From UHGV virus genome UHGV-1366990: a stretch of DNA of 64,000 nucleotides. One strand, 5' to 3'. Shown piece after piece: positions 8,104 through 64,000 of the stretch (positions are counted from its first letter, which is position 1; each line of letters opens with the position of its first letter). Under the pieces are notes generated by a model. The model had not been told where the DNA came from and ran no database searches. It worked only from the letters and a program-made list of their open reading frames with translations. The position numbers and the translations under genes were made by a program. Source of the stretch: a virus.

Positions 8104-8976
8104 ATGACAACTACATTTTCTAAGAACGTGAATCTGAATCTGGCTTTCGGTAATGCAAAGGGCGACGTCACATCGCCCGACTTTGGTAAGATCCGCAATC
8201 AGGCGAAACTGGTGCTGGAAGAAACTCGTGAACTGCTAGAAGCGGCGTATTTCGACCACGAGGTGAAAATTGAGTTCACCGCATCTCCGCGAGTCCTGAA
8301 AGAACCCGTTGTTGTCGACATCAAAGACATTATGCGCCAGATCATGGATGCCCAGGGCGACATCACAACAGTCAACGACGGTTTGGCTCATATTGCTGGT
8401 TTCGACGGTGACGAATGCCTACAGCGCGTGTATGCGTCTAATATGAGCAAGTTCGTTCGCAATGAAGGTGAAGTTGTTCCAGCGCTGGAGTATTACTATA
8501 ACAAAGGATTCCCACGCGAAAGTCTACGCATCGAAGGGGAATTCCCTCAGGCGTGCATCAAAGTGGTGGACACCATCACTGTCGACAGCAAAGAATACCC
8601 GGCTGGCAAGTTCCTGAAGAACATGGCAACCTTCAAAGAGCCTGACTTCTCTGATATGTTGACCACCGAGCCTAAGCGCCAGATCACCGAAATCATTCTG
8701 ACGGGCACGGCTACCCCAGGTCGACTCGGATGCAACGAACATGCTGGTGTTGCCTACGCGCCGTTCGATTTTATTGACGAGATCGTGGGATACACCAAGA
8801 TGGGTTTCCAGGCGTTCTCTGGCGAAACAGTCGAGAGCTACATTCCCGTGTTTGTTTTCAATGAAGACAACTTCCCAACTCTACCGTTGATCTGGGGTGA
8901 ATGGAAAGCCAACGTCCGTATCTATGTGGCCAGCCCAGTGCAATCATCTATCACCCAACTGACCCGTATCGATTAA
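8104..8976 (+). CDS. Hypothetical protein; N-terminal region weakly MazG/HisE-like
   Basis: 290-aa ORF; EETRELLEA motif; sits where T4 has gene 43. Confidence 0.55.
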   Translation: MTTTFSKNVNLNLAFGNAKGDVTSPDFGKIRNQAKLVLEETRELLEAAYFDHEVKIEFTASPRVLKEPVVVDIKDIMRQIMDAQGDITTVNDGLAHIAGFDGDECLQRVYASNMSKFVRNEGEVVPALEYYYNKGFPRESLRIEGEFPQACIKVVDTITVDSKEYPAGKFLKNMATFKEPDFSDMLTTEPKRQITEIILTGTATPGRLGCNEHAGVAYAPFDFIDEIVGYTKMGFQAFSGETVESYIPVFVFNEDNFPTLPLIWGEWKANVRIYVASPVQSSITQLTRID

Positions 8977-9044: not shown

Positions 9045-10268
9045 ATGAAAGATAAACCATATGACATCCCATATTGCGGTGTCCGTGAAACCAAAATCAA
9101 ATCAGCCCATCCTATGTTAAGTTCATTCCACCGCCAGCTGGCATATGAATGGATGAGGGATCGTTATGCGATACATGTCAAGAAGGACGTGCAATGCCTT
9201 CCAGCGCCATGGACGGATAATCCGGTATTACGCCAAGTCAAGTTTTGTAACGTGCGGAGAGAGCACGATAGACAGTCTCGAAATTTGATCAATAATATCA
9301 TCCTCAATCAGGATCTCACGCTATCTGACAAAATGTTCAACTGTGTATTGTTCCGCATGTACAACATGTGGGAACCTATACAGGCTTTGGGTGGTCCATG
9401 GACGATCGAAGAATTCGGAAACATAAATCTTGAATGGTGTCGAAATGTTCTTCAGGAATTCGAATCTAAAGGTGGCAAAGTTTTCACCAATGCGTTTAAT
9501 ACAGGCGGTCTGAAACAATGCCTGGCTTTCCCCGAACTAGTTGTCAACCACAAGGAGCATCACTTCGGTGGGATGATGGTGAATCTGATCTGTAAAGACG
9601 GTTCAATCCAGAACATGGATTACAAGGAAGCCAAGGCCATCGCTGAAGCAGAGCCGGACTTCTACACCATCGAAGGTTGGGAACCGTACATGCCAATGCG
9701 TGTCATCCGCTCCCTGAAGGCATTCGTCAACAAACACCCTCATTACTTTGATCGCCTCAGGGAATTTAGCCGTCCCGACTCTGTTTACCAGGCGATGTAT
9801 GACGACATTGAGGGGCTTGGACCATTCTTGGCATACCAGATTTGGGTTGATTTTACATACATCGATGAATATCCATTCAGTGAAAACCACTTCACTATCG
9901 CTGGTCCAGGTTGCCGTGCTGGTATCGATCTGTTATTTTTGGACAAGGACGGCATGACGCATGAAGAATGCATATTCTGGGTTCGTGATCATCAAGATCA
10001 ATTGTTCGCTCAGTATGGGTATAAACGTAATGAATTTTGGTCGGCAGAAGAACCGGAAGACCGTTGCATGAATGTTATGCAGCTGGAGAACATGTTCTGT
10101 GAACTTCAGAAATATACCCGCTGCGTTGAGGCAGTGATGCGCGGGGAGAAACCTCGAGGAAAGGTGGGGTATGACGGGAATGGCAGTGCGTATAAGCAAC
10201 GTTGTGATGAAGTCGTGCTCAAACGTGGTTCCGTCAATTTGCTGGACCGTTTGAAGAAACCTGAATAA
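9045..10268 (+). CDS. Hypothetical protein (407 aa)
   Basis: Long ORF with RBS AAGAGGA; no motif recognised by eye. Confidence 0.65.
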   Translation: MKDKPYDIPYCGVRETKIKSAHPMLSSFHRQLAYEWMRDRYAIHVKKDVQCLPAPWTDNPVLRQVKFCNVRREHDRQSRNLINNIILNQDLTLSDKMFNCVLFRMYNMWEPIQALGGPWTIEEFGNINLEWCRNVLQEFESKGGKVFTNAFNTGGLKQCLAFPELVVNHKEHHFGGMMVNLICKDGSIQNMDYKEAKAIAEAEPDFYTIEGWEPYMPMRVIRSLKAFVNKHPHYFDRLREFSRPDSVYQAMYDDIEGLGPFLAYQIWVDFTYIDEYPFSENHFTIAGPGCRAGIDLLFLDKDGMTHEECIFWVRDHQDQLFAQYGYKRNEFWSAEEPEDRCMNVMQLENMFCELQKYTRCVEAVMRGEKPRGKVGYDGNGSAYKQRCDEVVLKRGSVNLLDRLKKPE

Positions 10269-53818: not shown

Positions 53819-54756
53819 CCCATCACGTCTTGCAATATTCCCAAAAGGCTTGTCTTCTCCGCCGCCGTCAGGTTATCGTTACCCATGATGTCACGAGAGA
53901 TACCTACCGAGATGCGCTCGAAGTCCTGTATGCTTATTCCAGCCAGGTTGTTTACAAGTTGGTCAAGCTGTTTGTAAGCCAGGAGAGCCTCTCCTGTGAA
54001 GTTCCCTTCTTTCACCTTGCGATAAAGCTGTCCAGCTTTTGAGGCCGCAGTTTCCCAGTCACCACTGGTAAGAGCGTCAGCAATGCCGAGAGGAAGAAAA
54101 TCGCTGGAAAGGCTGCGTGTTTCATATTCTGTCTCCGAAAGCACTTTGTTGTAAGAGAAAGAAATGTTGTACTGGTTGAACTGGTCTGTGGCGCCTTTAT
54201 CCAGCTCAATAGAACTGAAATTTATTGGGTGAGCCTCGACGATGTAGACGCGATGGACCACTTGATCTTCGGTGTCAAGCTGTTCAATGCATATGTCAGT
54301 CACGAAGTCTTCGTAATATCCCATTTTGGTGGTGTGTGGATCAAAGATCAGACTCTTCCACTTGTCCATCACAGACTTCTCATAATAGTCATTGGCTAAT
54401 AAGAATGACAAGTCGAGGTCGACGTTGGACTTGTTGTTCGGCATCTTGATGTGATTACCGTTGTTTGTCATTGGAGTGGTGTCGATACCAACCCCTGGCA
54501 ATGAGGCAACCATACACATCATCTGAAGGGAACGGGACGTCTGGTTTGTCCCTCCAAAGAAAGCGTTTACAATACGGGCTGACTGCTTAAACAAGTCACC
54601 GAAAGATGAATTGGTTCTGTACGCCTTTCCGTCATTAGCCAGAGAGGCATTGGAGTCAAAGATCCCTGGTGGTAGAGGGATGGTCACTCTGAAGCGGTTC
54701 TTGCGCGACAAGCCCCGCTGTAATATCTGTGTGATAAAATTGCGATAGTCTTCCAC
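53812..54756 (-). CDS. Hypothetical late protein (possibly structural); GTG start
   Basis: 314-aa minus ORF; perfect TATAAATA 35 nt upstream plus GGAG RBS. Confidence 0.6.
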   Translation of the reverse strand: MEDYRNFITQILQRGLSRKNRFRVTIPLPPGIFDSNASLANDGKAYRTNSSFGDLFKQSARIVNAFFGGTNQTSRSLQMMCMVASLPGVGIDTTPMTNNGNHIKMPNNKSNVDLDLSFLLANDYYEKSVMDKWKSLIFDPHTTKMGYYEDFVTDICIEQLDTEDQVVHRVYIVEAHPINFSSIELDKGATDQFNQYNISFSYNKVLSETEYETRSLSSDFLPLGIADALTSGDWETAASKAGQLYRKVKEGNFTGEALLAYKQLDQLVNNLAGISIQDFERISVGISRDIMGNDNLTAAEKTSLLGILQDVMGK

Positions 54757-54790
54757 GGTGAGGACTCCACTTAAATAAAATAACTGTTAT

Positions 54791-54798
54791 TATTTATA
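54791..54798 (-). promoter_or_regulatory. T4-type late promoter TATAAATA (minus strand)
   Basis: Plus-strand TATTTATA; 35 nt upstream of minus GTG start 54756. Confidence 0.6.
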
Positions 54799-54809
54799 GG
54801 AGTTGACAA

Positions 54810-55514
54810 ATGGCAAAGAATGCAGCTGGCGAAGAAGATCCGTTGCTGTTTCCGGCCGAGATGGACGCCCCCGAGCTGGTCAAGCGTTACATCCGCAAGT
54901 ACCGTCAACACTTCGGTCCAGAGGCGAAGCGTAACATCCGCCGTTCGCATGTGTGGTTCATGGAGCGTGTGTCTAAGGACGCCAACCTGAGTCCCAACCA
55001 TATGAAACAGGCGTTTTCTGATCACAAACGTCCGGTACAAGGTGTGCGGTATATAGTCGGGCGTATGTTCTATTTCAAATATGATGCTCTGACGAAGAAT
55101 GAACTACCCTACTGGGATATGTACCCTCTGGTGTTCTTCTTCAACTTTGTCAAGGGTGATGGTATCACCTTTGGAGAGAAGGGTGTGACATACCTCTGGG
55201 GGCTCAACATGCACTACCTGCCACCGAAGCTCAGGCTGTTGGTGTTTGAGGATCTGATCAAGTTGCGTAACGAACGGGCATACCGCTCAAAGACGCGTCT
55301 GAAGCTCACCTGGGAAGCCCTGAAGCGCTTCGCCAACCATCCGCTGTACAATCACTGTGTGAAGCTGTACCGTGCCGATCAGTTCCGTTCACAGCTTTAC
55401 GAGATTGAGCCACAGTACTGGGAGATCGTTCTCTTCATGCGCACTGCCCGCTTCCAGAAACAGAGCCAGATGTCTGTGTGGAAAGATGCACGTCGTATGC
55501 ATAAGAAGAAATAG
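54810..55514 (+). CDS. Hypothetical basic protein
   Basis: 234-aa ORF, RBS AGGAG. Confidence 0.6.
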   Translation: MAKNAAGEEDPLLFPAEMDAPELVKRYIRKYRQHFGPEAKRNIRRSHVWFMERVSKDANLSPNHMKQAFSDHKRPVQGVRYIVGRMFYFKYDALTKNELPYWDMYPLVFFFNFVKGDGITFGEKGVTYLWGLNMHYLPPKLRLLVFEDLIKLRNERAYRSKTRLKLTWEALKRFANHPLYNHCVKLYRADQFRSQLYEIEPQYWEIVLFMRTARFQKQSQMSVWKDARRMHKKK

Positions 55515-55576
55515 TTCTATAACCCGTTCCGAGGGATAATTCGTGAACAGGTAATCCTAAATGATGAGGCTATAAC

Positions 55577-56326
55577 ATGTCACAAATTTATCGTATGTTC
55601 GGGTTAGAGTTTACCCCAGCTCGCCTTGATATGAAACTCCCAAATTTTGAAAAGAGTGGATTCGAAGTCGGTTGCGTTCTGGGTTTCGATCGAAACGGAA
55701 GATCAGTTCGTGAACAAAATATTTTCGATGTTCTGGGTGTGAAACCGGACAGTGAAACAGCAATCCGCTTCGAAGAGGACATCCGTTTTGGTCATTCCGA
55801 CCTGTACGATTATGTCCGTGATGTGATCGCTGGTTATGAACACGCTAAAGCACACATGAAGATGGCCACCGATGCATGCCTGAAACTGGCGCATTGTCTA
55901 TACTTCTTTGGTCGAAAGCGTCAGAATCTCGATATGGTATTCCCATCGGAACTGCTTGAACGCTTCTCTGAAACCGAATTCCTGCTGAAGCAAGCCGACG
56001 GAGTTGCTGTCAAATCTAGTGAAGTATTCAAATACCCGATAAATCTGGTTTCTGGACATCTGCTGGTAGGGCGTGATCAGGTCGACCTGGCGATTCATCC
56101 GGATATGGAGTATGATCAGAACTCCTGTCGTGCCATCCACAACTACGTAGGTGTCATTCTAGAAAACTTGTACTCAGCCATGGAAGAAGTGATGGCAGCA
56201 GAACAACAGGAAGAAGTGATTCGTCGTATCCGCGAAGATATCGAAGGGAAGGTGAAACAGGATGTTCTAGGGGAATATCCACCAGAGTATTTCCCTGAAG
56301 TTCCAAACTTCTACTTGTCCAAATAA
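55577..56326 (+). CDS. Hypothetical protein
   Basis: 249-aa ORF. Confidence 0.6.
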   Translation: MSQIYRMFGLEFTPARLDMKLPNFEKSGFEVGCVLGFDRNGRSVREQNIFDVLGVKPDSETAIRFEEDIRFGHSDLYDYVRDVIAGYEHAKAHMKMATDACLKLAHCLYFFGRKRQNLDMVFPSELLERFSETEFLLKQADGVAVKSSEVFKYPINLVSGHLLVGRDQVDLAIHPDMEYDQNSCRAIHNYVGVILENLYSAMEEVMAAEQQEEVIRRIREDIEGKVKQDVLGEYPPEYFPEVPNFYLSK

Positions 56327-56346
56327 CTCCACTGTGAGAGGTGTGT

Positions 56347-56622
56347 ATGAAACGTTATCTGAAGCTGACGACTGTCCTTGAGTCGATCATAGAGTATTTC
56401 ATCATGCAACACCTCCGCGCTGACAACATGCATTTAGACGGTTGCCTGACGTATGACCACAAGATCATTGTCCATTCTGTTGAAGTGGTGAATGATGATC
56501 TGATGATTGCAAATGTAGAACACTGTCTGTTTGATGAGTCGGTTGATGCGTACTGCCAACCACGGTTCGCAAAAGTCGAGCTAACAAATTGTTGGCCGCC
56601 GGAAATGGTTTTTCTATATTGA
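56347..56622 (+). CDS. Hypothetical protein
   Basis: ATG at 56347 after GAGAGGTG RBS. Confidence 0.45.
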   Translation: MKRYLKLTTVLESIIEYFIMQHLRADNMHLDGCLTYDHKIIVHSVEVVNDDLMIANVEHCLFDESVDAYCQPRFAKVELTNCWPPEMVFLY

Positions 56623-56675
56623 CGTAGAAAGTTAATATTCACGCAAGTTCGCGCTCCGCTTGGTCGCGCACCTTA

Positions 56676-56701
56676 TAACACTAAGGTGTTAACTTTCTTT
56701 T
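56676..56701 (+). terminator. Rho-independent terminator
   Basis: TAACAC/GTGTTA stem followed by CTTTCTTTTC. Confidence 0.5.
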
Positions 56702-56714
56702 CAATAAAAAGTAG

Positions 56715-56743
56715 TTTACATCTATGAAAATGCAGTATATTAT
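56715..56743 (+). promoter_or_regulatory. Early-type promoter TTTACA-N17-TATTAT
   Basis: 17-bp spacing, ~70 nt upstream of ATG 56812. Confidence 0.55.
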
Positions 56744-56811
56744 GTTCTCACTACACAGTCAGAACAACAATATGCCGCGGATACGGTCTTAATAACGAAA
56801 GGGTTTTTATT

Positions 56812-57648
56812 ATGTCATATATTCTTCATGTGGATTCTGGAACCAAAATTGAAATTGAAGGCAAAGACGTTGCTGCTATTCAGGCTGAAATCAAAGAAGC
56901 AGGTCTGATCATCGGAAACGTTACCCTGCGCCGTATGGTTGAAGGTGTTCTTCAGGCTGCCAACGGCTTCGAACTGATTGAAGGCCTGAGCGCCGAAGAG
57001 AAGGAAGAAACTCAGCAGGCTCTGGCGCAAGCCCAAGAGCAAGCCCAAGCTGAAGTATCCCTGAAAGTCGCTGAAACCGTTGATGTTGAAGCACCGATCT
57101 CTGCCGATGCATGTGAAGCCCCAGTGTCAGACGCCCCGGTAGACGCGGTTGAAGATGCAGTCAACGCGGCGCTGGAAGAAGGCAATCAGCCGTCCGACGC
57201 GAAAATCGGTTCCTTGGCGTCTTCTATGCTGAAAGAAGCATCGAAGGGTAAGACCCTGACCCCACAGGCAGCGCTGGTAGAGCGTAAACGCCGTCACACC
57301 AAACGTGAGGAAATGGTTGACTTGGCTCGCGCTTCTAATCACGGTCCGGTCTTGGCGGCGATTGAAGCTGGTGTTGTCCCCGGCGTGTTCCTGAGCTACG
57401 TGAACCCAGACATGCGTTGGTTCCAGTTCCCGGTCACCGAACTGGCTAACCCTGAAAACCTTCACGCCCGCACCAATACGTATGTCGACGTTGCGCCTAT
57501 CGTTTCCGGTGGCTGGGGCTTCAGTCTGTACGTGAACGGCAAGTCCTTCACCAAACGTCAGAAGATCAAAGAGTCTGATGCTGAGTCTCTGGTTAAGGCG
57601 ATCAATAAATGGCTTCCACAGGCTCTGGCTGAAGCGAAAGCTGTGTAA
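56812..57648 (+). CDS. Hypothetical acidic protein
   Basis: 278-aa ORF with own promoter TTTACA-N17-TATTAT. Confidence 0.6.
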   Translation: MSYILHVDSGTKIEIEGKDVAAIQAEIKEAGLIIGNVTLRRMVEGVLQAANGFELIEGLSAEEKEETQQALAQAQEQAQAEVSLKVAETVDVEAPISADACEAPVSDAPVDAVEDAVNAALEEGNQPSDAKIGSLASSMLKEASKGKTLTPQAALVERKRRHTKREEMVDLARASNHGPVLAAIEAGVVPGVFLSYVNPDMRWFQFPVTELANPENLHARTNTYVDVAPIVSGGWGFSLYVNGKSFTKRQKIKESDAESLVKAINKWLPQALAEAKAV

Positions 57649-57723
57649 ATTTAAGTTCAGAAACTGTTCAATAGATGAAGGGGTTGCTATAATAGCAGCT
57701 CCTTTTGTTTATCGGAGCAGTTT

Positions 57724-58383
57724 ATGTCCTACTCCCTGAAGGGGCTGATGAAGCGCCCCGTCCACACATTCTTTAAACCACCCGTCGTAAAGGGGATCTA
57801 CCCAGCACGAGGGCAAATCTACTACGTCAAAGGCTCCAATGGTAGCGGTAAATCCACTGTGCCGTCTCAGCTGGCGGAGAGGGATCCTCAGGCGTATGTC
57901 GTGACCCATAACGGCAAGGTCATGCTGACTGTCTGTCCTTCGTTCAACGTGGTCTGTATCGGTAAATATGACAAGTCGAAGTCCAAGGGGGTTGATTCCC
58001 TGAAGGACACTGAGCAGATGTTGTTCGCGTTGTCTATTGCTGACCAACCAGAATACTTGAAATATGATGTGATTTTCGAAGGTATCATTCCATCAACATT
58101 ATTGAGTTCTTGGATCCCCCGCCTGACACGCCCGCCACGTGAATTGGTTGTGCTCTTTATGGACACTCCCCTTGAAACGTGTATCTCCCGCGTTAAATCA
58201 CGTAACGGTGGTGTGGAATTCAATGAAAGTCTGGTGGTCGAGAAGTGGGAGAGAGTTCATGACCATCGTCAACGACATAAAGACTTGTTCCCTACGGTGG
58301 CTGCGGGTATGATGAAGTCTCACGGCCTAACAGTAGACCAGGCTGTGATGGCATTCCTCTGTCGTGATTTTGGGAGTATCTGA
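57724..58383 (+). CDS. P-loop kinase (candidate nucleotide or DNA-base kinase)
   Basis: Walker A GSNGSGKST; 219 aa; immediately upstream of thymidylate-synthase-fold gene. Confidence 0.65.
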   Translation: MSYSLKGLMKRPVHTFFKPPVVKGIYPARGQIYYVKGSNGSGKSTVPSQLAERDPQAYVVTHNGKVMLTVCPSFNVVCIGKYDKSKSKGVDSLKDTEQMLFALSIADQPEYLKYDVIFEGIIPSTLLSSWIPRLTRPPRELVVLFMDTPLETCISRVKSRNGGVEFNESLVVEKWERVHDHRQRHKDLFPTVAAGMMKSHGLTVDQAVMAFLCRDFGSI

Positions 58384-59429
58384 TGGAAATCAAAGCAATT
58401 AACAACAATGACATGCTGAAGCAGGCTGTCTTGGCTATCCGTGAATTCGGGATCGAATCTGATCCTGGTAATGCTGAAATCAATACTGATAGCACCCGCT
58501 TCCTTGATGGTGTGACTATCACTGTTTCCGACATCCGTGACCGCTGGCTCTCCGTTGAAGGTCGCAACTCATCGGCTATCGCTGCCATCGGCGAGACCTT
58601 CTGGGTGTTGTCAGGCCGCAACGACATAAAGTTCCTGTCACGCGTATTGCCTCGCGCTGCTAACTTTTCGGATGATGGGGTAACATGGCGAGCTGCTTAT
58701 GGTCCGCGTCTGTACGCCCATGGCCAGCTGGATAGCGTTATCAACCGCCTGCGCAAGAACCCAAACACTCGCCAGGCGTACCTCACCATCTATGACCCGG
58801 CTCTAGATTCGGATGCTGGTCTGGCGAAGTTCAGCGAGAGCGGCGAAGCGAAGACCAAGGACATGGTGTGTAATCTGGCTCTGTTGTTCTCCATCGTTGA
58901 AGGTCGTCTGAACCTGACGGTCATCAATCGCTCACAGGATGTTCTTTGGGGGATGAGTTCAATTAACTTCATTGAGTTCTCTATTCTTCAGGAAGTGATT
59001 GCTCGGGTGCTGGACGTTGACGTCGGTCAGTACAAGCTATTCTCTAATAATCTTCATTACTACAACAATGAAGTCAGCCAGAAGCAGCTGGGAAAGATCA
59101 CGAAGGACACCAAAGTAGAAGCTGGGTTCATCAACTCCATGATTCACTTCACGAACGTGACCAACCAGAACCATATCCGCAATCTGTTCACTGGTGTGCT
59201 TCATCACTGTGATATCGGCAGCCCGTGGGAAACTGTGGTCGCCCACCTGAAGGAATATGATGCTGATCGTGGCCTGATTGTACAGATGGCGTACTGTCTG
59301 CACTGCAAACTGAACGAAAAGCTCATTAACCTGGACCTGATTCAGGACCATGGCTTGAACACCGCGCTCACCCATTCTCCGGTTGACCGCAAGATCGTTG
59401 ATCCTAAGTTCCTGGAAGGTGTAGTATGA
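58383..59429 (+). CDS. Thymidylate synthase-fold enzyme (candidate deoxypyrimidylate hydroxymethylase or thymidylate synthase)
   Basis: MVCNLALLFSIVEGRLNLTVINRSQD aligns with ThyA [26 protein letters not shown] (catalytic Cys, RSxD); same position relative to uvsX as T4 gene 42. Confidence 0.8.
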   Translation: MEIKAINNNDMLKQAVLAIREFGIESDPGNAEINTDSTRFLDGVTITVSDIRDRWLSVEGRNSSAIAAIGETFWVLSGRNDIKFLSRVLPRAANFSDDGVTWRAAYGPRLYAHGQLDSVINRLRKNPNTRQAYLTIYDPALDSDAGLAKFSESGEAKTKDMVCNLALLFSIVEGRLNLTVINRSQDVLWGMSSINFIEFSILQEVIARVLDVDVGQYKLFSNNLHYYNNEVSQKQLGKITKDTKVEAGFINSMIHFTNVTNQNHIRNLFTGVLHHCDIGSPWETVVAHLKEYDADRGLIVQMAYCLHCKLNEKLINLDLIQDHGLNTALTHSPVDRKIVDPKFLEGVV

Positions 59430-59995
59430 TGTACCCGAACCTCGAATTCTTTACGGGGCGCAAGCGCTCCGGTAAGGACTTCTGTTTGGAGTCCCTGATC
59501 AGTTATCACCACTTACAGGGTGATATGGACATCCAGCGCCTTTCGTTCTCAGATGAACTGCGCCGTGTAGCCAACTACATCTACCCATGGCTGCCAGCGG
59601 AGGTAGAGGATGCCGTGAAGGACGTTCCTTACGTGCACCCTGATAACCCCAAGGGCTTAACTCCACGGCAGATCTGGCTTCATCTAGGCAGCGATACGGG
59701 CTTGCGTTACGTACAACCCGATCTGTTCCTGGCATTCTTCAAGCGATTCCAGCTTCCTCTGGTAGAGCAGAACCCCCACGTCCATTATATCGTGAGTGAT
59801 CTGCGTACCCCTCAGGAATATGAATGGGCGCTGAGTACGAAATGTCCTATCACCCGTATTTCAAAGGCCGACCGTGCTGGTATCATAGAGGACGATATAG
59901 AGACTTTCATTGACCAAATGAAAGTGGACTACGAATTCCTCAATCCATTTGATGGTTGGGAACCGTTCGTTAAATTCTACGGAGAACGTAAATGA
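59426..59995 (+). CDS. Deoxynucleoside monophosphate kinase (gp1-like)
   Basis: FFTGRKRSGKD resembles T4 gp1 LSGVKRSGKD P-loop. Confidence 0.65.
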   Translation: MMYPNLEFFTGRKRSGKDFCLESLISYHHLQGDMDIQRLSFSDELRRVANYIYPWLPAEVEDAVKDVPYVHPDNPKGLTPRQIWLHLGSDTGLRYVQPDLFLAFFKRFQLPLVEQNPHVHYIVSDLRTPQEYEWALSTKCPITRISKADRAGIIEDDIETFIDQMKVDYEFLNPFDGWEPFVKFYGERK

Positions 59996-60546
59996 TCACA
60001 GCAGGGCATATCAAAAGCCTGCTCGAACTCCAAAAGGCCACTAACGTGGCCTACTTTGGGGAAGAGTGGAAGAATGTATGGAGTCAGAACGCAGTCATCA
60101 ACTCTATCTATCGTGAGTGGGCAGAGTTCCTTGATGAAACCACCCGTGACTGGAAGGTCTATGGCAACGACATCGGGTTTGACCATACGAACGCAGTTTA
60201 TGAACTGGTGGACGTGGTACACTTCATGTTGTGCTTCATCCTTGTGGACCGCACCAAAGGTGAGATCGAAGAAGAATTTGAAGTCCTTAGTAATCGCGAA
60301 TTCACCCCATCTGCTTTGGGTGTTGTAGGGCATCGCAATGTTACGTACCGCCTTGGGCAATTCATGAACGATCCTTGCGTTGAGACTCTCATGTTCTTCC
60401 TGTCGTCTGCGTGTTCTTATATGGAGATCGACATTGAGACTTACATACTGGCACACAAACGCAAGAACGATCGCAATCGTCTGCGTGCTTCTGGTGGCGC
60501 GGATTACGATAAGTCCGCAGAAACCCCTCTGACCCTGGAGTTCTAA
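59992..60546 (+). CDS. dUTPase/dCTPase-like nucleotide pyrophosphatase (gp56-like)
   Basis: ELVDVVHFMLCFIL resembles T4 gp56 ELVDVLHFYMNAML. Confidence 0.6.
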   Translation: MITAGHIKSLLELQKATNVAYFGEEWKNVWSQNAVINSIYREWAEFLDETTRDWKVYGNDIGFDHTNAVYELVDVVHFMLCFILVDRTKGEIEEEFEVLSNREFTPSALGVVGHRNVTYRLGQFMNDPCVETLMFFLSSACSYMEIDIETYILAHKRKNDRNRLRASGGADYDKSAETPLTLEF

Positions 60547-61088
60547 TGTTTACAGTCGTCGTTTCATACCATGCGGAGAACGCTGCTCAGGCATCCTCCA
60601 AATTCGCCGAGCACATCATCGGCGGCGGACATAATGTATTCCTTACCGAATACACCAGGCCTGTTAAACCGGGCGACGGTCTTTCGGCGACTGTTACGCA
60701 TAAGATCGCCAGCGAGCAACCAGAGTCTCTGTTCAGGATGATCGAAGAGTATGCCGGTGGTGGCATCAAGATACCAGATGAACTGGTAGACGTCTATTTT
60801 GAAGGCTCGATCTATTACATCCACGCTATGCCAAAGGATGTAACCATTGAACAGATGATGTATATCCTGAATATAGCACTGAACACTGCGTGCATCAACC
60901 GCACGAACTACAACAATCTGCGCAATATGTACCTAACCGACCGGCATAATGACGCATCGTCACTTGTTGAGACAATGTCCCTGAAGAGCATCCAAGAGGC
61001 GGTTAACATTTTGTCCCAGAAGGTTATGGGTGTAGAATTATTAACGACGATCAACAATAAAGAGGAAGTGAAATGGCCAGTTCATTAA
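60546..61088 (+). CDS. Hypothetical protein
   Basis: 180-aa ORF between pyrophosphatase and uvsX. Confidence 0.55.
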   Translation: MFTVVVSYHAENAAQASSKFAEHIIGGGHNVFLTEYTRPVKPGDGLSATVTHKIASEQPESLFRMIEEYAGGGIKIPDELVDVYFEGSIYYIHAMPKDVTIEQMMYILNIALNTACINRTNYNNLRNMYLTDRHNDASSLVETMSLKSIQEAVNILSQKVMGVELLTTINNKEEVKWPVH

Positions 61089-62158
61089 TGGACCGCATGC
61101 TGAAGGTTGCTAAGAAACACGATGACCAGGCTTCAGTGCTGTCCCAATCAGACGCTCTGGAACCGTCTATCATCTGTTCTACTGGTATTCCCCTGATCGA
61201 TATCGCATGGTCTGGGCGTATTGACGGCGGTCTGATCTCCGGTATCAAGATGATGGTGGGTGATTCCCGTACCTTCAAAACGATGTTCGGCCTGGTCGAT
61301 GTCAAGGCGTACATGGACAAGTTCCCTGATGCTATCTGCGTCTTTGCGGACTCAGAAAAGGGTGCCAACGCCGATTACTGGACCTCTATGGGCATTGACA
61401 TGGACCGCGTCCTGTACGTACCGATCGACAACGTTGAACAGACCAAGATCCGCTTGCTGCAGATCCTCCAGGAAGTCAAGAAAGGCGACCATGTTATAAT
61501 CTTCATCGACTCTATCAGCCAACTTCCCTCCACCAAGGAAGTTGAAGATGCGATCAAAGGGAACGACACTCAAGACATGACCCGCGCCCGTGCCCTCAAC
61601 AGCTTCTGGCGTGTCATGACTCCCGAAATCAACAGCAAAAATCTCGTGTGTGTTTGGATCAACTCCTATTACGATGAGATCGGCAACCAGTATGCCGAGC
61701 CTAACATCAAAGGCGGCAAACAGGGCTTCTTATCCTCCAACTTGATATGGTTTATCACCCGTTCTCAGGTGAAGGAAGACAAAGATCTGCTAGGCTGGAA
61801 CTTCAACATAAGCATCATGAAAGGCCGCCATGTCAAAGAAAAAGCCAAGCTCCCTGTGACGGTACTGTACAACGGTGGTATTGATCGCTGGAGCGGCCTG
61901 CTTGAGATCGCTCGTGCTCTGGGTTATGTTGATATGCCGTCTTCCGGTTGGTATGTGCGTACAGCCAAGGGTGGTTTCGATCCTGAGAAGGAAAAGAAAT
62001 ATCAGAAGCGTCAGATGGGTGATGATTTCTGGTATCCGCTGCTGGAGAATGTCAACTTCGCCGATGACGTGAAGAAAATGTTCGGTGTTTCTAACGGTAC
62101 TGTTATGCCTGCTAACATGCTGGAGCAAATGGACCATGTTATTAACACAAGCGAATAA
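61073..62158 (+). CDS. uvsX: UvsX RecA-like recombinase
   Basis: Extended similarity to T4 UvsX (FIDSISQLPSTKEVEDAIKG..DMTRARALNSFWRV). Confidence 0.85.
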   Translation: MASSLMDRMLKVAKKHDDQASVLSQSDALEPSIICSTGIPLIDIAWSGRIDGGLISGIKMMVGDSRTFKTMFGLVDVKAYMDKFPDAICVFADSEKGANADYWTSMGIDMDRVLYVPIDNVEQTKIRLLQILQEVKKGDHVIIFIDSISQLPSTKEVEDAIKGNDTQDMTRARALNSFWRVMTPEINSKNLVCVWINSYYDEIGNQYAEPNIKGGKQGFLSSNLIWFITRSQVKEDKDLLGWNFNISIMKGRHVKEKAKLPVTVLYNGGIDRWSGLLEIARALGYVDMPSSGWYVRTAKGGFDPEKEKKYQKRQMGDDFWYPLLENVNFADDVKKMFGVSNGTVMPANMLEQMDHVINTSE

Positions 62159-62465
62159 CAGTGGAGGGGGAGGAGACTCCCCCAATAACTACACAATCAT
62201 CGACCCTGGTGCTGATCAGCTGGCGATCATCAAGATCACTTCTGGCAAATTCCGTGGTGTTCAATTCCGGTTCGGCAAGGTGGCCATCAACGAAGTGGAC
62301 GGCGAACCCCGCCTGTCTTTCGTGACTGATATATTGAAGAAACCATTGCGTCTGATGTTTGTGGATTTGAAAGAAAATGACTTGTTCACTGAGGTGTCAG
62401 GGGATATCCTTGTAGACCTCATGCAGCGTAATGCTCAGGAATATAATAAATTTTTGGTGGGGTAG
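62136..62465 (+). CDS. Hypothetical protein (start uncertain)
   Basis: C-terminal part of ORF 62085..62465 looks protein-like; sits where T4 has gene 40. Confidence 0.4.
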   Translation: MLLTQANNSGGGGDSPNNYTIIDPGADQLAIIKITSGKFRGVQFRFGKVAINEVDGEPRLSFVTDILKKPLRLMFVDLKENDLFTEVSGDILVDLMQRNAQEYNKFLVG

Positions 62466-62471
62466 TGGCCA

Positions 62472-63896
62472 ATGTTACTCGAATCTGTCGTGCTTTCACA
62501 GTTGATTTACAATGAAGATTACCAAAGAAAGATCCTGCCGTACCTGAAAGCCGATTATTTTGACAACGAAGGCGAAAAGGTCATCTTTGGTCTGATTGAC
62601 AGTTATACCTCAGAGTACAATGCCCGCCCGTCTGTCGAAGCACTATCTATCATTCTTGAACGGACAAAGCTGAACGAATATGTGTTTGACCAGGCGGTAA
62701 CTGCCCTGGAGAACATCAACGACAACACCTTCAATGAAGAGTGGCTGGCGAAGGAAACCGAGGCTTGGGCGCGACAAAAGGCCGTACACAACGCAATCAA
62801 GACTGCCGTTAACATCTACGGTGACGAGAAGCGCAAGGACGAGATGAACAACATCCCGACCATGTTGCAGGAAGCCTTGGCTATCCGGTTTGATTCATAC
62901 CTCGGTCATATCTATTGGGAGATGGCGGCAGAGCAGTATGACCACATGAACTCCAATGAGGCCAAGATCCCGTTCGCAGTTGAGATCTTCAATAAGGCGA
63001 CACGTGGTGGCGTTGGTAAGAAGACACTGAACATCGTAACAGGTGCGATCAACGCAGGTAAGACCACAACGCTGATTGACCTGACCGCAGGGTACTCGGA
63101 GCAGGGGCTGAACGTCTTTGTCTTCACCCTTGAAGTGGCCGAGAACGTCTGGCGACACCGTCTTGATGCCCGTATCATGCGTCGCGACTTTGAGTCTTTA
63201 GAGAAACTCACAAGGCACGAGTATATTGCAACGATAGAGAAGCTCCGCAGTCGCCAAGACGGTGCACCCAAGGGTGATATCGTCATCAAGGAATATCCTT
63301 CCGGTGCTGGACACACAGGTTTATTCCGCCGCGATATCCTTGAGTACATCCAGGCAACAGGTCGTGCTCCCGATGTTATCGTTATTGACTATCTTGGCGA
63401 AGCTGCTTCCTCGCGCCTGCCTGCCCACCTGATGCAGAACACGAACGTCTATTACACGTCTGTGGCTCGTGAGTTTCGTGCTCTTGGATTTGAGTTTGAT
63501 GTCCCTGTATGGACTGGTATGCAGTTCAATCGTGAGAATCAGAATAGCACTGATGGCGGAATCAGTGATTTGGCAGATGCTATCGGTATTCCGAAGGTGG
63601 CCGACTTCATCATGGCATTCTATGCTCCTGACGAACTGGCGGCGGTCAAGAAAGCCCGAGCCTCAATACTCAAGAACCGTTATGCCAACAAGCAGAAGCT
63701 GAAATCATTCCTGTTTGGTATGGACCAAGACAAACAGATCCTGTTTGACCTGGACTGGAATGAAGTTAAGAAGGACCTGACTGAGGCTGAGGCCAAATAT
63801 GTCGAAAACGTACACATCAAACATGACCTCAACAAGTCCGGGGCTGCTGCCAGCGATGAGCAGAAAGCCCAAACAGTCAATAATTGGAAATTCTAG
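62472..63896 (+). CDS. 41: Replicative DnaB-like helicase (gp41-like)
   Basis: Walker A GAINAGKTT; follows uvsX as in T4. Confidence 0.85.
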   Translation: MLLESVVLSQLIYNEDYQRKILPYLKADYFDNEGEKVIFGLIDSYTSEYNARPSVEALSIILERTKLNEYVFDQAVTALENINDNTFNEEWLAKETEAWARQKAVHNAIKTAVNIYGDEKRKDEMNNIPTMLQEALAIRFDSYLGHIYWEMAAEQYDHMNSNEAKIPFAVEIFNKATRGGVGKKTLNIVTGAINAGKTTTLIDLTAGYSEQGLNVFVFTLEVAENVWRHRLDARIMRRDFESLEKLTRHEYIATIEKLRSRQDGAPKGDIVIKEYPSGAGHTGLFRRDILEYIQATGRAPDVIVIDYLGEAASSRLPAHLMQNTNVYYTSVAREFRALGFEFDVPVWTGMQFNRENQNSTDGGISDLADAIGIPKVADFIMAFYAPDELAAVKKARASILKNRYANKQKLKSFLFGMDQDKQILFDLDWNEVKKDLTEAEAKYVENVHIKHDLNKSGAAASDEQKAQTVNNWKF

Positions 63897-63900
63897 GTAA

Positions 63901-63928
63901 TTCAATAAAGCGGGTCATAGGGTATAAT
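63901..63928 (+). promoter_or_regulatory. Promoter TTCAAT-N16-TATAAT
   Basis: Perfect -10, 33 nt upstream of ATG 63961. Confidence 0.5.
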
Positions 63929-63960
63929 TCTATGATCTGAATATAAACCAGGAGCACATC

Positions 63961-64000
63961 ATGTCACACAATGATTTTATGGCTGGCCTGGTGCAGGCCG
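63961..64000 (+). CDS. Hypothetical protein, 3'-truncated at window edge
   Basis: ATG at 63961 downstream of TTCAAT-N16-TATAAT promoter and GGAG RBS. Confidence 0.35.
   Translation, partial: MSHNDFMAGLVQA

What the first reader, a model, noticed from the sequence alone, without database searches (positions are those of the whole stretch)
57724..60546. Pyrimidine-modification module next to uvsX: kinase, ThyA-fold enzyme, dNMP kinase, dUTPase/dCTPase-like pyrophosphatase
Four overlapping genes encode a P-loop kinase (GSNGSGKST), a thymidylate-synthase-fold enzyme (catalytic Cys and RSQD motif), a gp1-like dNMP kinase and a gp56-like nucleotide pyrophosphatase. In T4 the matching position holds gene 42 (dCMP hydroxymethylase), and gp1 and gp56 serve modified-nucleotide synthesis. 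This arrangement suggests the phage replaces a canonical pyrimidine with a 5-hydroxymethyl pyrimidine. The residue aligning with ThyA Asn177 appears to be Asn (SINF), which would favour a uracil substrate, but this rests on a by-eye alignment. The extra upstream P-loop kinase has no T4 counterpart here and could be a kinase acting on hydroxymethyl groups in DNA, the first step of thymidine hypermodification described for some phages.
Basis: partly seen in the sequence, partly recalled or inferred. Interest (0 to 1): 0.75.

Follow-up and report, generated by a model that had tools for sequence, protein, structure and literature searches.

The report
Known thymidine-hypermodification genes of a ViI-like phage

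Summary
Window 57724-60546 holds four translationally coupled + strand genes. They continue without a break into an ACT-like gene, uvsX and the gp41 helicase.

The window comes from an Aglimvirinae (Agtrevirus-like) Escherichia phage. The module is 98.3-98.5% identical in DNA to phages YX22, LHE287, RPN242 and ZQ1.

- **Gene 1 (219 aa)** is a full-length PF18748 5-hmdU DNA kinase (E 6e-109). It is 87.7% identical and syntenic to Salmonella phage ViI gp67, which was shown biochemically to phosphorylate 5-hmdU in DNA.
- **Gene 2 (348 aa)** has the thymidylate-synthase fold with Cys163, RSQD 183-186 and Asn195 at the ThyA Asn177 position. It lacks Trp80 and the TS C-terminus, and it groups with the hydroxymethylases of hmU phages.
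- **Genes 3 and 4** are a distant gp1-type dNMP kinase and an all-alpha dUTPase_2-family pyrophosphatase. The latter falls in the same PHROG family as T4 gp56.

The ViI gp160 orthologue lies elsewhere in the window. The remaining pathway genes (kinase 2, serine:DNA transferase, PLP decarboxylase) are present in the nearest relative.

The pathway was published in PNAS 2018 and NAR 2021, and reviews call it conserved across Ackermannviridae. Verdict: interpretation supported, already known, low interest.

The parts
57677..57705 (+). Conserved stem-loop (13-bp stem, TATAAT in the loop) between the upstream gene and the kinase RBS. Probably the terminator of the upstream gene and/or a regulatory element of the module.
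   Evidence: Terminator-like hit. The fold of 57665-57725 gives -25.2 kcal/mol, z -5.8. About 50 nt are nearly invariant between this window, RPN242, ViI and aagejoakim, although the upstream protein is only 56% identical.
57724..58383 (+). 5-hydroxymethyl-dU DNA kinase (5-HMUDK, 'kinase 1'), orthologue of ViI gp67. Walker A GSNGSGKST at 57832-57858.
   Evidence: PF18748, E 5.9e-109, positions 1-195 of a 196-position profile. 87.7% identity over 219 aa to ViI gp67 in the same gene order. ViI gp67 activity shown in PMC8989533.
58383..59429 (+). Thymidylate-synthase-fold dUMP 5-hydroxymethylase (predicted): catalytic core about residues 1-240, plus a roughly 110-aa C-terminal extension. Cys163, RSQD 183-186, Asn195, His225, Tyr227.
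   Evidence: PF00303, 8e-16. Far below all TS equivalog cut-offs. Best solved relative is the CMP hydroxymethylase MilA, 2e-17. Residue map. 77% identical to ViI orf66.
59426..59995 (+). dNMP kinase (predicted), distant relative of T4 gp1. P-loop GRKRSGKD at 59456-59479.
   Evidence: phrog_139, 1.2e-47, the same PHROG as T4 gp1. No hit to Pfam DNMK PF21448. 90.5% identical to ViI orf65.
59992..60546 (+). All-alpha (dimeric dUTPase / MazG-type) nucleoside-triphosphate pyrophosphatase, predicted dUTPase or dTTPase. EWAE at 60115-60126 and ELVD at 60202-60213.
   Evidence: PF08761, 5.8e-09, above its cut-off. phrog_173, 5.8e-40, the same PHROG as genuine T4 gp56. Best solved relative is the Campylobacter dimeric dUTPase 1w2y.
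60546..61088 (+). ACT-like 180-aa protein of unknown function, translationally coupled between the pyrophosphatase and uvsX. Possibly part of the module; this is not shown.
   Evidence: PF24021, 9.5e-79. Found in 270 phage records, all from hosts of Ackermannviridae-type phages, and in every row listed (40 of the 270) it sits between the NTPase and uvsX.
61073..62158 (+). UvsX recombinase (context, same transcription unit by overlap).
   Evidence: RecA and T4_UVSX_C domains. 70% identical to ViI UvsX.
9045..10268 (+). Orthologue of ViI gp160 (aGPT-Pplase clade 1, DNA-glycosylase-like). It belongs to the same pathway but lies 48 kb away in the window.
   Evidence: 78.7% identical to ViI gp160 over the full length. 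PF18723, 1.6e-83. gp160 was one of the five ViI proteins in the lysate mix that reconstituted 5-NeOmdU (PMC5889632).
8104..8976 (+). Second, MazG-like pyrophosphatase next to the gp160 orthologue. Its role in the pathway is unknown.
   Evidence: phrog_2144, 6e-132. 57.6% identical to ViI orf161.

Best explanation
This is the conserved Ackermannviridae operon that starts thymidine hypermodification.

Before replication (inferred from family membership and from the classical hmU-phage pathway):
- The all-alpha pyrophosphatase hydrolyses dUTP, and probably dTTP, to the monophosphate.
- The ThyA-fold enzyme converts dUMP and methylene-THF to 5-hm-dUMP. It traps the exocyclic methylene with water instead of reducing it.
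- The phage dNMP kinase makes 5-hm-dUDP, and host NDP kinase makes 5-hm-dUTP.
- The phage polymerase then incorporates 5-hmdU in place of T.

After replication:
- The first gene's product, a 5-hmdU DNA kinase, transfers the gamma-phosphate of ATP to the hydroxymethyl group of 5-hmdU in DNA, giving 5-PmdU. This was shown for the 88%-identical ViI gp67.
- Enzymes encoded elsewhere in the genome finish the job. An aGPT-Pplase clade 2 replaces the phosphate with serine (giving O-SerT), and a PLP decarboxylase gives 5-(2-aminoethoxy)methyl-dU (5-NeOmdU). These steps were shown for ViI gp247 and gp226.
- In ViI-like phages about 40% of T positions end up as 5-NeOmdU, which blocks many restriction enzymes.
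For: Gene content, order and overlaps are identical to ViI Vi01_061c-056c.

- **Kinase:** PF18748 at E 5.9e-109 and 87.7% identical to ViI gp67. ViI gp67 activity on 5-hmdU DNA is published (PMC8989533).
- **HMase:** Asn195 aligns with ThyA Asn177 and with T4 gp42 Asp179. Trp80 is replaced by Ala, His147 by Asn and Leu143 by Asp, as in the M6-species and SPO1-like enzymes. TS equivalog models score 18-58 bits against cut-offs of 108-427. The best solved relative is a hydroxymethylase.
- **Pyrophosphatase:** PF08761 above its cut-off and the EXXE...EXXD motif. A dUTPase/dCTPase-fold dTTPase/dUTPase that spares 5hmdUTP was characterised in another thymine-hypermodifying phage (PMC13458397).
- **Rest of the pathway:** the gp160 orthologue is in the window. 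The nearest relative, RPN242, has module proteins 98.9-99.5% identical to the window's and carries orthologues of gp226 (90.7%), gp243 (81.9%) and gp247 (88.3%), plus a dCMP deaminase and a deoxyribonucleotidase.
- **Chemistry in relatives:** the 301-Da nucleoside 5-NeOmdU was measured in ViI, CBA6, CBA120 and even the distant Vibrio phage 1.255.O. The authors listed AG3, SKML-39 and LIMEstone, whose module DNA is 91.8%, 91.0% and about 90% identical to this one, as likely to contain it too (PMC5889632).
Against: - No chemistry exists for this phage or, as far as I found, for any Aglimvirinae member. The final base is inferred from orthology.
- In the papers I read, the hydroxymethylase, dNMP kinase and pyrophosphatase of ViI-like phages are predicted, not assayed.
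- Three pathway genes lie outside the 64-kb window, so their presence in this genome is inferred from relatives that are 98-99% identical.
- About 60% of T in ViI DNA is ordinary thymidine, and its origin is unexplained (PMC5889632). Complete replacement of dTTP by 5-hm-dUTP is therefore not proven.
- The single-sequence structure model failed (pLDDT 33.7), so there is no structure-based check of Asn195.
Confidence: 0.9

Rival explanations
1. This is an ordinary dTTP-supply module. The ThyA-fold protein is a plain thymidylate synthase, the upstream P-loop protein is a thymidylate or nucleoside kinase, and there is also a dNMP kinase and a housekeeping dUTPase. Many GenBank records annotate the genes this way.
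For: Depositors' annotations include 'putative thymidylate synthase', 'putative thymidylate kinase' and 'dUTP diphosphatase'. There is a Pfam Thymidylat_synt hit and a weak phrog_761 'thymidylate kinase' hit at 1.5e-06. About 60% of T in ViI DNA is normal thymidine (PMC5889632).
Against: The kinase matches the 5-hmdU DNA kinase family end to end at 362 bits, against 21 bits for a generic AAA domain. Its 88%-identical orthologue phosphorylates DNA, not nucleotides. The ThyA-fold protein misses every TS equivalog cut-off by a factor of about 3 to 24. It also lacks Trp80 and the TS C-terminus and carries the substitutions shared by hmU-phage enzymes. ViI-like virion DNA contains a 5-hmdU-derived base.
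Confidence: 0.04
2. This is a T4-type cytosine pathway. The ThyA-fold enzyme is a dCMP hydroxymethylase and the pyrophosphatase is a dCTPase, giving hmC-containing DNA.
For: The position upstream of uvsX-40-41 matches that of T4 gene 42. The pyrophosphatase shares a PHROG with T4 gp56 dCTPase/dUTPase. The best solved relative, MilA, acts on CMP.
Against: The position of T4 gp42 Asp179 is Asn195 here, as in dUMP-specific enzymes. ViI DNA shows normal dC and a modified T. A 5-hmdU DNA kinase would have no substrate. No glucosyltransferase is present in the module. The nearest relative encodes a dCMP deaminase that feeds dUMP.
Confidence: 0.02
3. The early steps are the same (5-hmdU incorporation and phosphorylation), but this Aglimvirinae lineage ends with a different hypermodified base from the 5-NeOmdU of Kuttervirus.
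For: I found no nucleoside analysis of any Agtrevirus or Limestonevirus. Small changes in Pplase2 switch the donor substrate in other phages (PMC13458397). The module shows allelic mosaicism in the hydroxymethylase C-terminal domain and in the pyrophosphatase.
Against: In the nearest relative the serine transferase and the PLP decarboxylase are 88% and 91% identical to the characterised ViI enzymes. The far more distant Vibrio phage 1.255.O still makes the same 301-Da nucleoside.
Confidence: 0.05

Closest known systems
Salmonella phage ViI (Kuttervirus) genes Vi01_061c-057c: gp67 5-HMUDK, orf66 'thyA' dUMP hydroxymethyltransferase, orf65 dnk, orf63 dUTPase, orf62; part of the 5-NeOmdU pathway (Lee et al. 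2018, PMC5889632; Lee et al. 2021, PMC8989533)
   Same: The five genes, their order and their overlaps are the same, followed by uvsX, a small ORF and gp41. Protein identities are 87.7, 77.4, 90.5, 60.8 and 55.0%. The conserved hairpin upstream of the kinase is also the same.
   Different: This phage belongs to a different subfamily (Aglimvirinae, not Cvivirinae). The C-terminal roughly 110 aa of the hydroxymethylase are only 42-57% identical to ViI, and the pyrophosphatase is a different allele (61%).
Agtrevirus-like Escherichia phages YX22, LHE287, vB_EcoM-RPN242, vB_EcoM-ZQ1; Shigella phage AG3
   Same: Module DNA is 98.3-98.5% identical to the four Escherichia phages and 91.8% identical to AG3. 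Proteins are 98.9-99.5% identical to RPN242. AG3 is listed among the 5-HMUDK-encoding ViI-like phages in PMC5889632.
   Different: Nothing of substance differs. In these records the kinase is mostly labelled 'hypothetical protein' or 'terminase small subunit'.
Pre-replicative hmU pathway of Bacillus phages SPO1/SP8/phi-e and of PhiW-14 (dUMP hydroxymethylase, dTTPase/dUTPase, dNMP kinase, dCMP deaminase)
   Same: The enzymatic logic is the same. The hydroxymethylase shares the substitutions Trp80 lost, His147 to Asn, Leu143 to Asp, Leu172 to Trp, and the one-residue insertion before the conserved Asn.
   Different: It is only 28% identical to the SPO1-like enzyme. SPO1-type phages stop at 5-hmdU and have no DNA kinase.
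T4 genes 42 (dCMP hydroxymethylase), 1 (dNMP kinase) and 56 (dCTPase/dUTPase)
   Same: The three enzyme classes are the same, and the ThyA-fold gene sits at the same position relative to uvsX-40-41. Window genes 3 and 4 are in the same PHROG families as gp1 and gp56.
   Different: The base is uracil, not cytosine (Asn195 against Asp179). Pairwise similarity to gp1 and gp56 is limited to the P-loop and the ELVDxxHF motif. T4 has no DNA kinase and modifies hmC by glucosylation.

Membership tests
5-hmdU DNA kinase (Pfam PF18748 HMUDK_HMUD1) | Match to the family profile above the curated cut-off, over the full length | tested here: met
   362.5 bits against a cut-off of 27; residues 14-208 cover profile positions 1-195 of 196.
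5-hmdU DNA kinase (Pfam PF18748 HMUDK_HMUD1) | P-loop (Walker A) NTP-binding motif | tested here: met
   GSNGSGKST at residues 37-45.
5-hmdU DNA kinase (Pfam PF18748 HMUDK_HMUD1) | Orthology with a biochemically characterised member | tested here: met
   87.7% identity over 219 of 220 aa to ViI gp67 (YP_004327432) at the syntenic position. Its activity is reported in PMC8989533.
5-hmdU DNA kinase (Pfam PF18748 HMUDK_HMUD1) | ATP-dependent phosphorylation of the 5-hydroxymethyl group of 5-hmdU in DNA | not testable with these tools
   Needs an in vitro assay on 5-hmdU DNA.
Thymidylate synthase superfamily (ThyA fold, PF00303) | Profile match above the cut-off, with the catalytic Cys, the phosphate-binding Arg/Ser, and the Asp, His and Tyr of the active site | tested here: met
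   58.4 bits against a cut-off of 24.3. E71, Y106, R130, C163, R183, S184, D186, H225 and Y227 are invariant in the alignment with TS and hydroxymethylases.
Canonical thymidylate synthase (dTMP-forming ThyA) | Score above the NCBIfam equivalog cut-offs | tested here: not met
   18-58 bits against cut-offs of 108-427 for seven TS equivalog models.
Canonical thymidylate synthase (dTMP-forming ThyA) | Folate-shielding Trp80 and Trp83 and the closing C-terminus, which are needed for hydride transfer (roles stated from established TS enzymology, my own knowledge) | tested here: not met
   Trp80 is replaced by Ala92 and Trp83 by Phe95. The TS C-terminus is replaced by an unrelated extension of about 110 aa.
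dUMP 5-hydroxymethylase of hmU phages | Asn at the ThyA Asn177 position (uracil specificity) | tested here: met
   Asn195 aligns with Asn177 by HMMER and by MAFFT. The same one-residue insertion occurs in the ViI, M6-species and SPO1-like enzymes.
dUMP 5-hydroxymethylase of hmU phages | Closer to enzymes of phages with hmU-derived DNA than to TS or dCMP hydroxymethylase | tested here: met
   28% identity to the M6-species and SPO1-like enzymes, against 20-22% to TS and 16% to T4 gp42. tblastn gives 1e-26 to 1e-38 for hmU-type phages and 1e-6 for T4-type td.
dUMP 5-hydroxymethylase of hmU phages | Formation of 5-hm-dUMP from dUMP and methylene-THF | not testable with these tools
   Needs an enzyme assay. 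I found no assay of the ViI-type enzyme in the papers I read.
dCMP hydroxymethylase (T4 gp42 type) | Asp at the position of gp42 Asp179 (cytosine specificity) | tested here: not met
   Asn195 occupies that column. The gp42 sequence was verified against PDB entry 1B49.
T4 gp1-type dNMP kinase (Pfam PF21448 DNMK) | Match to the Pfam DNMK profile | tested here: not met
   No PF21448 hit at E <= 0.01 for the 189-aa protein, whereas T4 gp1 scores 357.9 bits.
T4 gp1-type dNMP kinase (wider family, PHROG 139) | Same remote-homology family as gp1, with the G-x-K-R-S-G-K-D P-loop | tested here: met
   phrog_139 at 1.2e-47 for the window protein and 1.8e-65 for gp1. GRKRSGKD here against GVKRSGKD in gp1.
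All-alpha NTP pyrophosphatase / dimeric dUTPase (PF08761 dUTPase_2; includes T4 gp56) | Profile match above the cut-off, and the EXXE...EXXD metal-binding motif | tested here: met
   36.9 bits against a cut-off of 22.9, over the full profile. E42-W-A-E45 and E71-L-V-D74 are present. It is in phrog_173 together with genuine T4 gp56.
All-alpha NTP pyrophosphatase / dimeric dUTPase (PF08761 dUTPase_2; includes T4 gp56) | Substrate range (dUTP, dTTP, dCTP; sparing of 5-hm-dUTP) | not testable with these tools
   Needs an assay. A functional precedent exists in phage SH-Ab 15599 gp18 (PMC13458397), but tblastn found no similarity to that phage.
Complete 5-NeOmdU pathway of ViI-like phages | Presence of an aGPT-Pplase clade 1 (gp160) | tested here: met
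   Window 9045-10268 is 78.7% identical to ViI gp160 and matches PF18723 at 1.6e-83.
Complete 5-NeOmdU pathway of ViI-like phages | Presence of the serine:DNA transferase (gp247), the PLP decarboxylase (gp226) and the second kinase (gp243) | tested here: inconclusive
   None of the three is in the 64-kb window. All three are present in the nearest relative, RPN242, at 88.3, 90.7 and 81.9% identity to ViI.
Complete 5-NeOmdU pathway of ViI-like phages | 5-NeOmdU (301 Da) in virion DNA | not testable with these tools
   Measured only for ViI, CBA6, CBA120 and 1.255.O (PMC5889632).

The most novel reading that the evidence does not exclude
The most novel reading my evidence does not exclude concerns the unexplained origin of thymidine in these phages. 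The gp67-type kinase sits in the early nucleotide operon. Together with the clade-1 aGPT-Pplase (window 9045-10268), whose role was not assigned in the papers I read, it might serve the still unexplained in-DNA conversion of 5-hmdU back to thymidine at the roughly 60% of sites that are not hypermodified. The second kinase, which lies next to the serine transferase, would then serve hypermodification. A weaker variant is that the Ackermannviridae-specific ACT-like protein, translationally coupled to the module, regulates it by sensing a small molecule. Nothing I computed supports either idea positively. They simply remain open.
Probability: 0.1. Interest if true: 0.6.

Novelty: already known. 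Interest (0 to 1): 0.12.

Why it matters
As a discovery it matters little. The pathway, the kinase family (which has a dedicated Pfam entry) and the linkage between the kinase and the dUMP hydroxymethylase in ViI-like phages were published in 2018 and 2021. Reviews state that these genes are conserved across Ackermannviridae.

Two practical points remain.

- DNA of this phage should be expected to resist many type II restriction enzymes and to behave oddly in sequencing and cloning. This is relevant because such phages are proposed for biocontrol.
- The kinase is still widely mis-annotated as 'terminase small subunit' or 'thymidylate kinase', and the hydroxymethylase as 'thymidylate synthase'. 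These labels hide the modification pathway from automated annotation.

Tried and rejected
- **Structure model of the 348-aa enzyme.** A single-sequence AlphaFold2 model gave mean pLDDT 33.7. It was unusable, so I ran no fold search and made no structure-based check of Asn195. I chose not to spend a 5.8-billion-protein homology search to build an alignment, because the verdict would not change.
- **Solved structures for the kinase and the dNMP kinase.** phmmer against PDB gave only P-loop noise for the kinase (CFTR NBD, E 0.009 and worse) and nothing for the dNMP kinase. No solved close relative was found by sequence.
- **Other libraries.** PADLOC gave no hits for the five proteins. Rfam at gathering thresholds gave no hits in 54000-64000. 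NCBIfam has no model for the kinase, the dNMP kinase, the ACT-like protein or the gp160 orthologue.
- **Link to the characterised dTTPase/dUTPase.** tblastn with the pyrophosphatase did not reach Acinetobacter phage SH-Ab 15599.
- **Promoters.** The sigma-70 scan around the module was not above the shuffled expectation (16 found, 10.5 +/- 3 expected), so I assign no promoter.
- **Opposite-strand ORFs.** ORFs inside the module, such as 59977-60456, lie wholly within the four family-matched + strand genes. I treated them as spurious and did not test them against any library.
- **Literature.** The EcoSal review PMC11163837 is not held in the library.

Full report
**What is there**

They overlap by 1, 4 and 4 nt. 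The chain of overlaps continues into a 180-aa ORF (60546-61088) and uvsX (61073-62158), followed by a small ORF and the gp41-type helicase. The whole block therefore looks like one translationally coupled unit. The quoted motifs were checked by translation: Walker A GSNGSGKST, Cys163, RSQD 183-186 and the Asn of SINF (Asn195). ORFs on the opposite strand lie wholly inside these genes, and I treated them as spurious without testing them.

**Where the window comes from**

The module is 98.3-98.5% identical in DNA to Escherichia phages YX22, LHE287, vB_EcoM-RPN242 and vB_EcoM-ZQ1. It is 91-92% identical to Shigella phage AG3 and Salmonella phage SKML-39, and about 90% identical to the Dickeya Limestone-type phages. 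RPN242 is classified as Ackermannviridae, Aglimvirinae. The gene order is that of Salmonella phage ViI genes Vi01_061c to Vi01_054c.

**The kinase**

- The 219-aa protein matches Pfam PF18748 '5-hmdU DNA kinase' end to end (E 5.9e-109, 362.5 bits).
- It is 87.7% identical over its full length to ViI gp67 (YP_004327432), which occupies the same position.
- Lee et al. 2021 showed that ViI gp67, ViI gp243 and the M6, PhiW-14 and SP10 homologues convert 5-hmdU in DNA to 5-phosphomethyl-dU, with ADP as the other product (PMC8989533).
- RefSeq and PHROG phrog_800 label this protein 'terminase small subunit'. That is an annotation error, because the real small terminase is annotated elsewhere in ViI and RPN242.

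**The ThyA-fold enzyme**

It has the TS fold (PF00303, 8e-16) but falls far below all seven NCBIfam TS equivalog cut-offs. Its best solved relative is the CMP hydroxymethylase MilA (2e-17), ahead of any thymidylate synthase.

I aligned it with ViI orf66, the M6-species (AN14) and SPO1-like (Goe2) enzymes, a T4-type td, E. coli ThyA and T4 gp42. The gp42 sequence was checked against PDB entry 1B49.

- The catalytic and phosphate-binding residues are conserved: E71, Y106, R130, C163, R183, S184, D186, H225 and Y227.
- Asn195 falls in the column of ThyA Asn177 and gp42 Asp179, after a one-residue insertion shared by all four hmU-phage enzymes. HMMER gives the same alignment.
- These four enzymes also share the replacements Trp80 to Ala or Met, His147 to Asn, Leu143 to Asp and Leu172 to Trp.
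- All four lack the TS C-terminus and carry a long C-terminal extension instead.
- From established TS enzymology (my own knowledge), Trp80 and the closing C-terminus protect the exocyclic methylene intermediate and position the folate for hydride transfer. Their loss fits a hydroxymethylase.
- Outside the family, the closest phage homologues come from M6-like, Bordetella, SPO1-like and phiRSL1 phages, several of them annotated as deoxyuridylate hydroxymethyltransferases. T4-type td genes are far weaker matches.
- I found no direct assay of the ViI-type enzyme in the papers I read. Its function is inferred there too, where it is called 'dU hmt' (PMC5889632).

**The dNMP kinase and the pyrophosphatase**

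- The 189-aa protein is in phrog_139 with T4 gp1 and has the gp1-type P-loop GRKRSGKD. It does not match Pfam DNMK, and its pairwise similarity to gp1 is confined to the P-loop.
- The 184-aa protein matches PF08761 above its cut-off and carries EWAE and ELVD metal-binding motifs.
- It is most like the dimeric dUTPases of Campylobacter and trypanosomatids among solved structures.
- It shares phrog_173 with genuine T4 gp56, but pairwise similarity to gp56 is again only at motif level.
- A 2026 study of another thymine-hypermodifying phage characterised a protein with this fold as a dTTPase/dUTPase that spares 5hmdUTP and dCTP (PMC13458397). That is the most likely role here, but it is an inference.

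**The rest of the pathway**

The window also contains the orthologue of ViI gp160, an aGPT-Pplase clade 1 (9045-10268; 78.7% identity; PF18723, 1.6e-83). A second, MazG-like pyrophosphatase lies next to it (8104-8976). The orthologues of gp226 (PLP decarboxylase), gp243 (second kinase) and gp247 (serine:DNA transferase) are not in the window. The nearest relative, RPN242, carries all three at 90.7, 81.9 and 88.3% identity to ViI. It also carries a dCMP deaminase and a 5'(3')-deoxyribonucleotidase.

**Mechanism**

- *Shown for the ViI orthologues:* the DNA kinase makes 5-PmdU, gp247 replaces the phosphate with serine, and gp226 decarboxylates the product to 5-NeOmdU (PMC8989533). A mix of five lysates reconstitutes the base (PMC5889632).
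- *Measured:* 5-NeOmdU replaces about 40% of T in ViI, CBA6, CBA120 and the distant Vibrio phage 1.255.O.
- *Inferred:* the pre-replicative steps. dUTP, and possibly dTTP, is hydrolysed to the monophosphate; dUMP is hydroxymethylated; 5-hm-dUMP is phosphorylated; 5-hm-dUTP is incorporated. These follow the classical hmU-phage scheme summarised in PMC8989533.
- *Also inferred:* that this particular phage does all of the above.

**Novelty**

There is none in kind.

- Lee et al. 2018 list AG3, SKML-39 and LIMEstone among the ViI-like phages that encode 5-HMUDK. They note that the kinase co-occurs with the dUMP hydroxymethyltransferase and predict 5-NeOmdU for the whole group.
- Reviews state that these genes are strictly conserved in Ackermannviridae.
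- A paper on phage SW16-7, whose module is 92% identical to this one, lists the same genes.
- Rival readings (an ordinary dTTP module, a T4-type hmC pathway, a different final base) each get 5% or less.

**Things seen in passing**

- A conserved hairpin lies just upstream of the kinase.
- The hydroxymethylase C-terminal domain and the pyrophosphatase exist as distinct alleles across Ackermannviridae genera.
- An ACT-like gene in the operon was found only in Ackermannviridae-type phage records.
- Public annotation of the kinase is systematically wrong.

**Open question**

The origin of the roughly 60% unmodified thymidine is stated as unknown in PMC5889632. The role of the clade-1 aGPT-Pplase is likewise unassigned in the papers I read.

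Noticed in passing
window 57665-57719 (stem 57677-57705): There is a strong hairpin (-25.2 kcal/mol, z -5.8) with TATAAT in its loop, 18 nt upstream of the kinase start codon. About 50 nt are almost invariant between this phage and the Kuttervirus phages ViI and aagejoakim, although the upstream protein is only 56% identical. The single C-to-T difference keeps the pair (G-U). In the extended fold the outer stem pairs with the kinase Shine-Dalgarno region. It could be a terminator, a regulatory element, or both.
   Followed up: partly
window 58383-59429 (residues 241-348 = 59103-59429); L001 17164-18204; L010 4001-5047: The hydroxymethylase is mosaic across Ackermannviridae. Its catalytic core is 82-95% identical to ViI, but the C-terminal roughly 110 aa are only 42-57% identical. 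The Kuttervirus phage aagejoakim carries the window-type allele (94% overall), although its flanking genes are as distant from the window's as those of ViI. This suggests exchange of the gene, or of its C-terminal domain, between subfamilies. The function of the extension is unknown.
   Followed up: partly
window 59992-60546: The pyrophosphatase also exists as several allele classes that do not follow taxonomy. It is about 91% identical in some Klebsiella (Taipeivirus-type) phages and 81-89% in some Kuttervirus phages, but only about 61% in most Kuttervirus phages, including ViI.
   Followed up: no
window 57724-58383 and homologues in RefSeq (e.g. NC_015296 Vi01_061c): The 5-hmdU DNA kinase is systematically annotated as 'terminase small subunit' (RefSeq, PHROG phrog_800), 'thymidylate kinase' or 'hypothetical protein'. 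The true small terminase is annotated elsewhere in these genomes.
   Followed up: yes
window 60546-61088: This 180-aa ACT-like protein (PF24021) was found only in Ackermannviridae-type phage records (270 records). In all 40 listed rows it is wedged between the pyrophosphatase and uvsX, and here it is translationally coupled to both. It is only 55% identical to the ViI copy. Its function is unknown. ACT domains commonly bind amino acids, so a link to the serine-dependent modification is conceivable but untested.
   Followed up: partly
window 8104-8976 and 9045-10268: A second, MazG-like pyrophosphatase (phrog_2144) lies directly upstream of the gp160-type aGPT-Pplase clade 1 gene, as in ViI (orf161 and orf160). 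The papers I read assign no function to either protein.
   Followed up: no
L004/L005 (phage RPN242, OL656110.1 141439-145621): In the nearest relative the DNA polymerase gene is annotated in two pieces separated by other ORFs, and homing endonuclease genes (SegD-like, HNH, GIY-YIG) are scattered around the modification genes. One sits between the deoxyribonucleotidase and kinase 2. Homing endonucleases may drive the allele mosaicism noted above.
   Followed up: no
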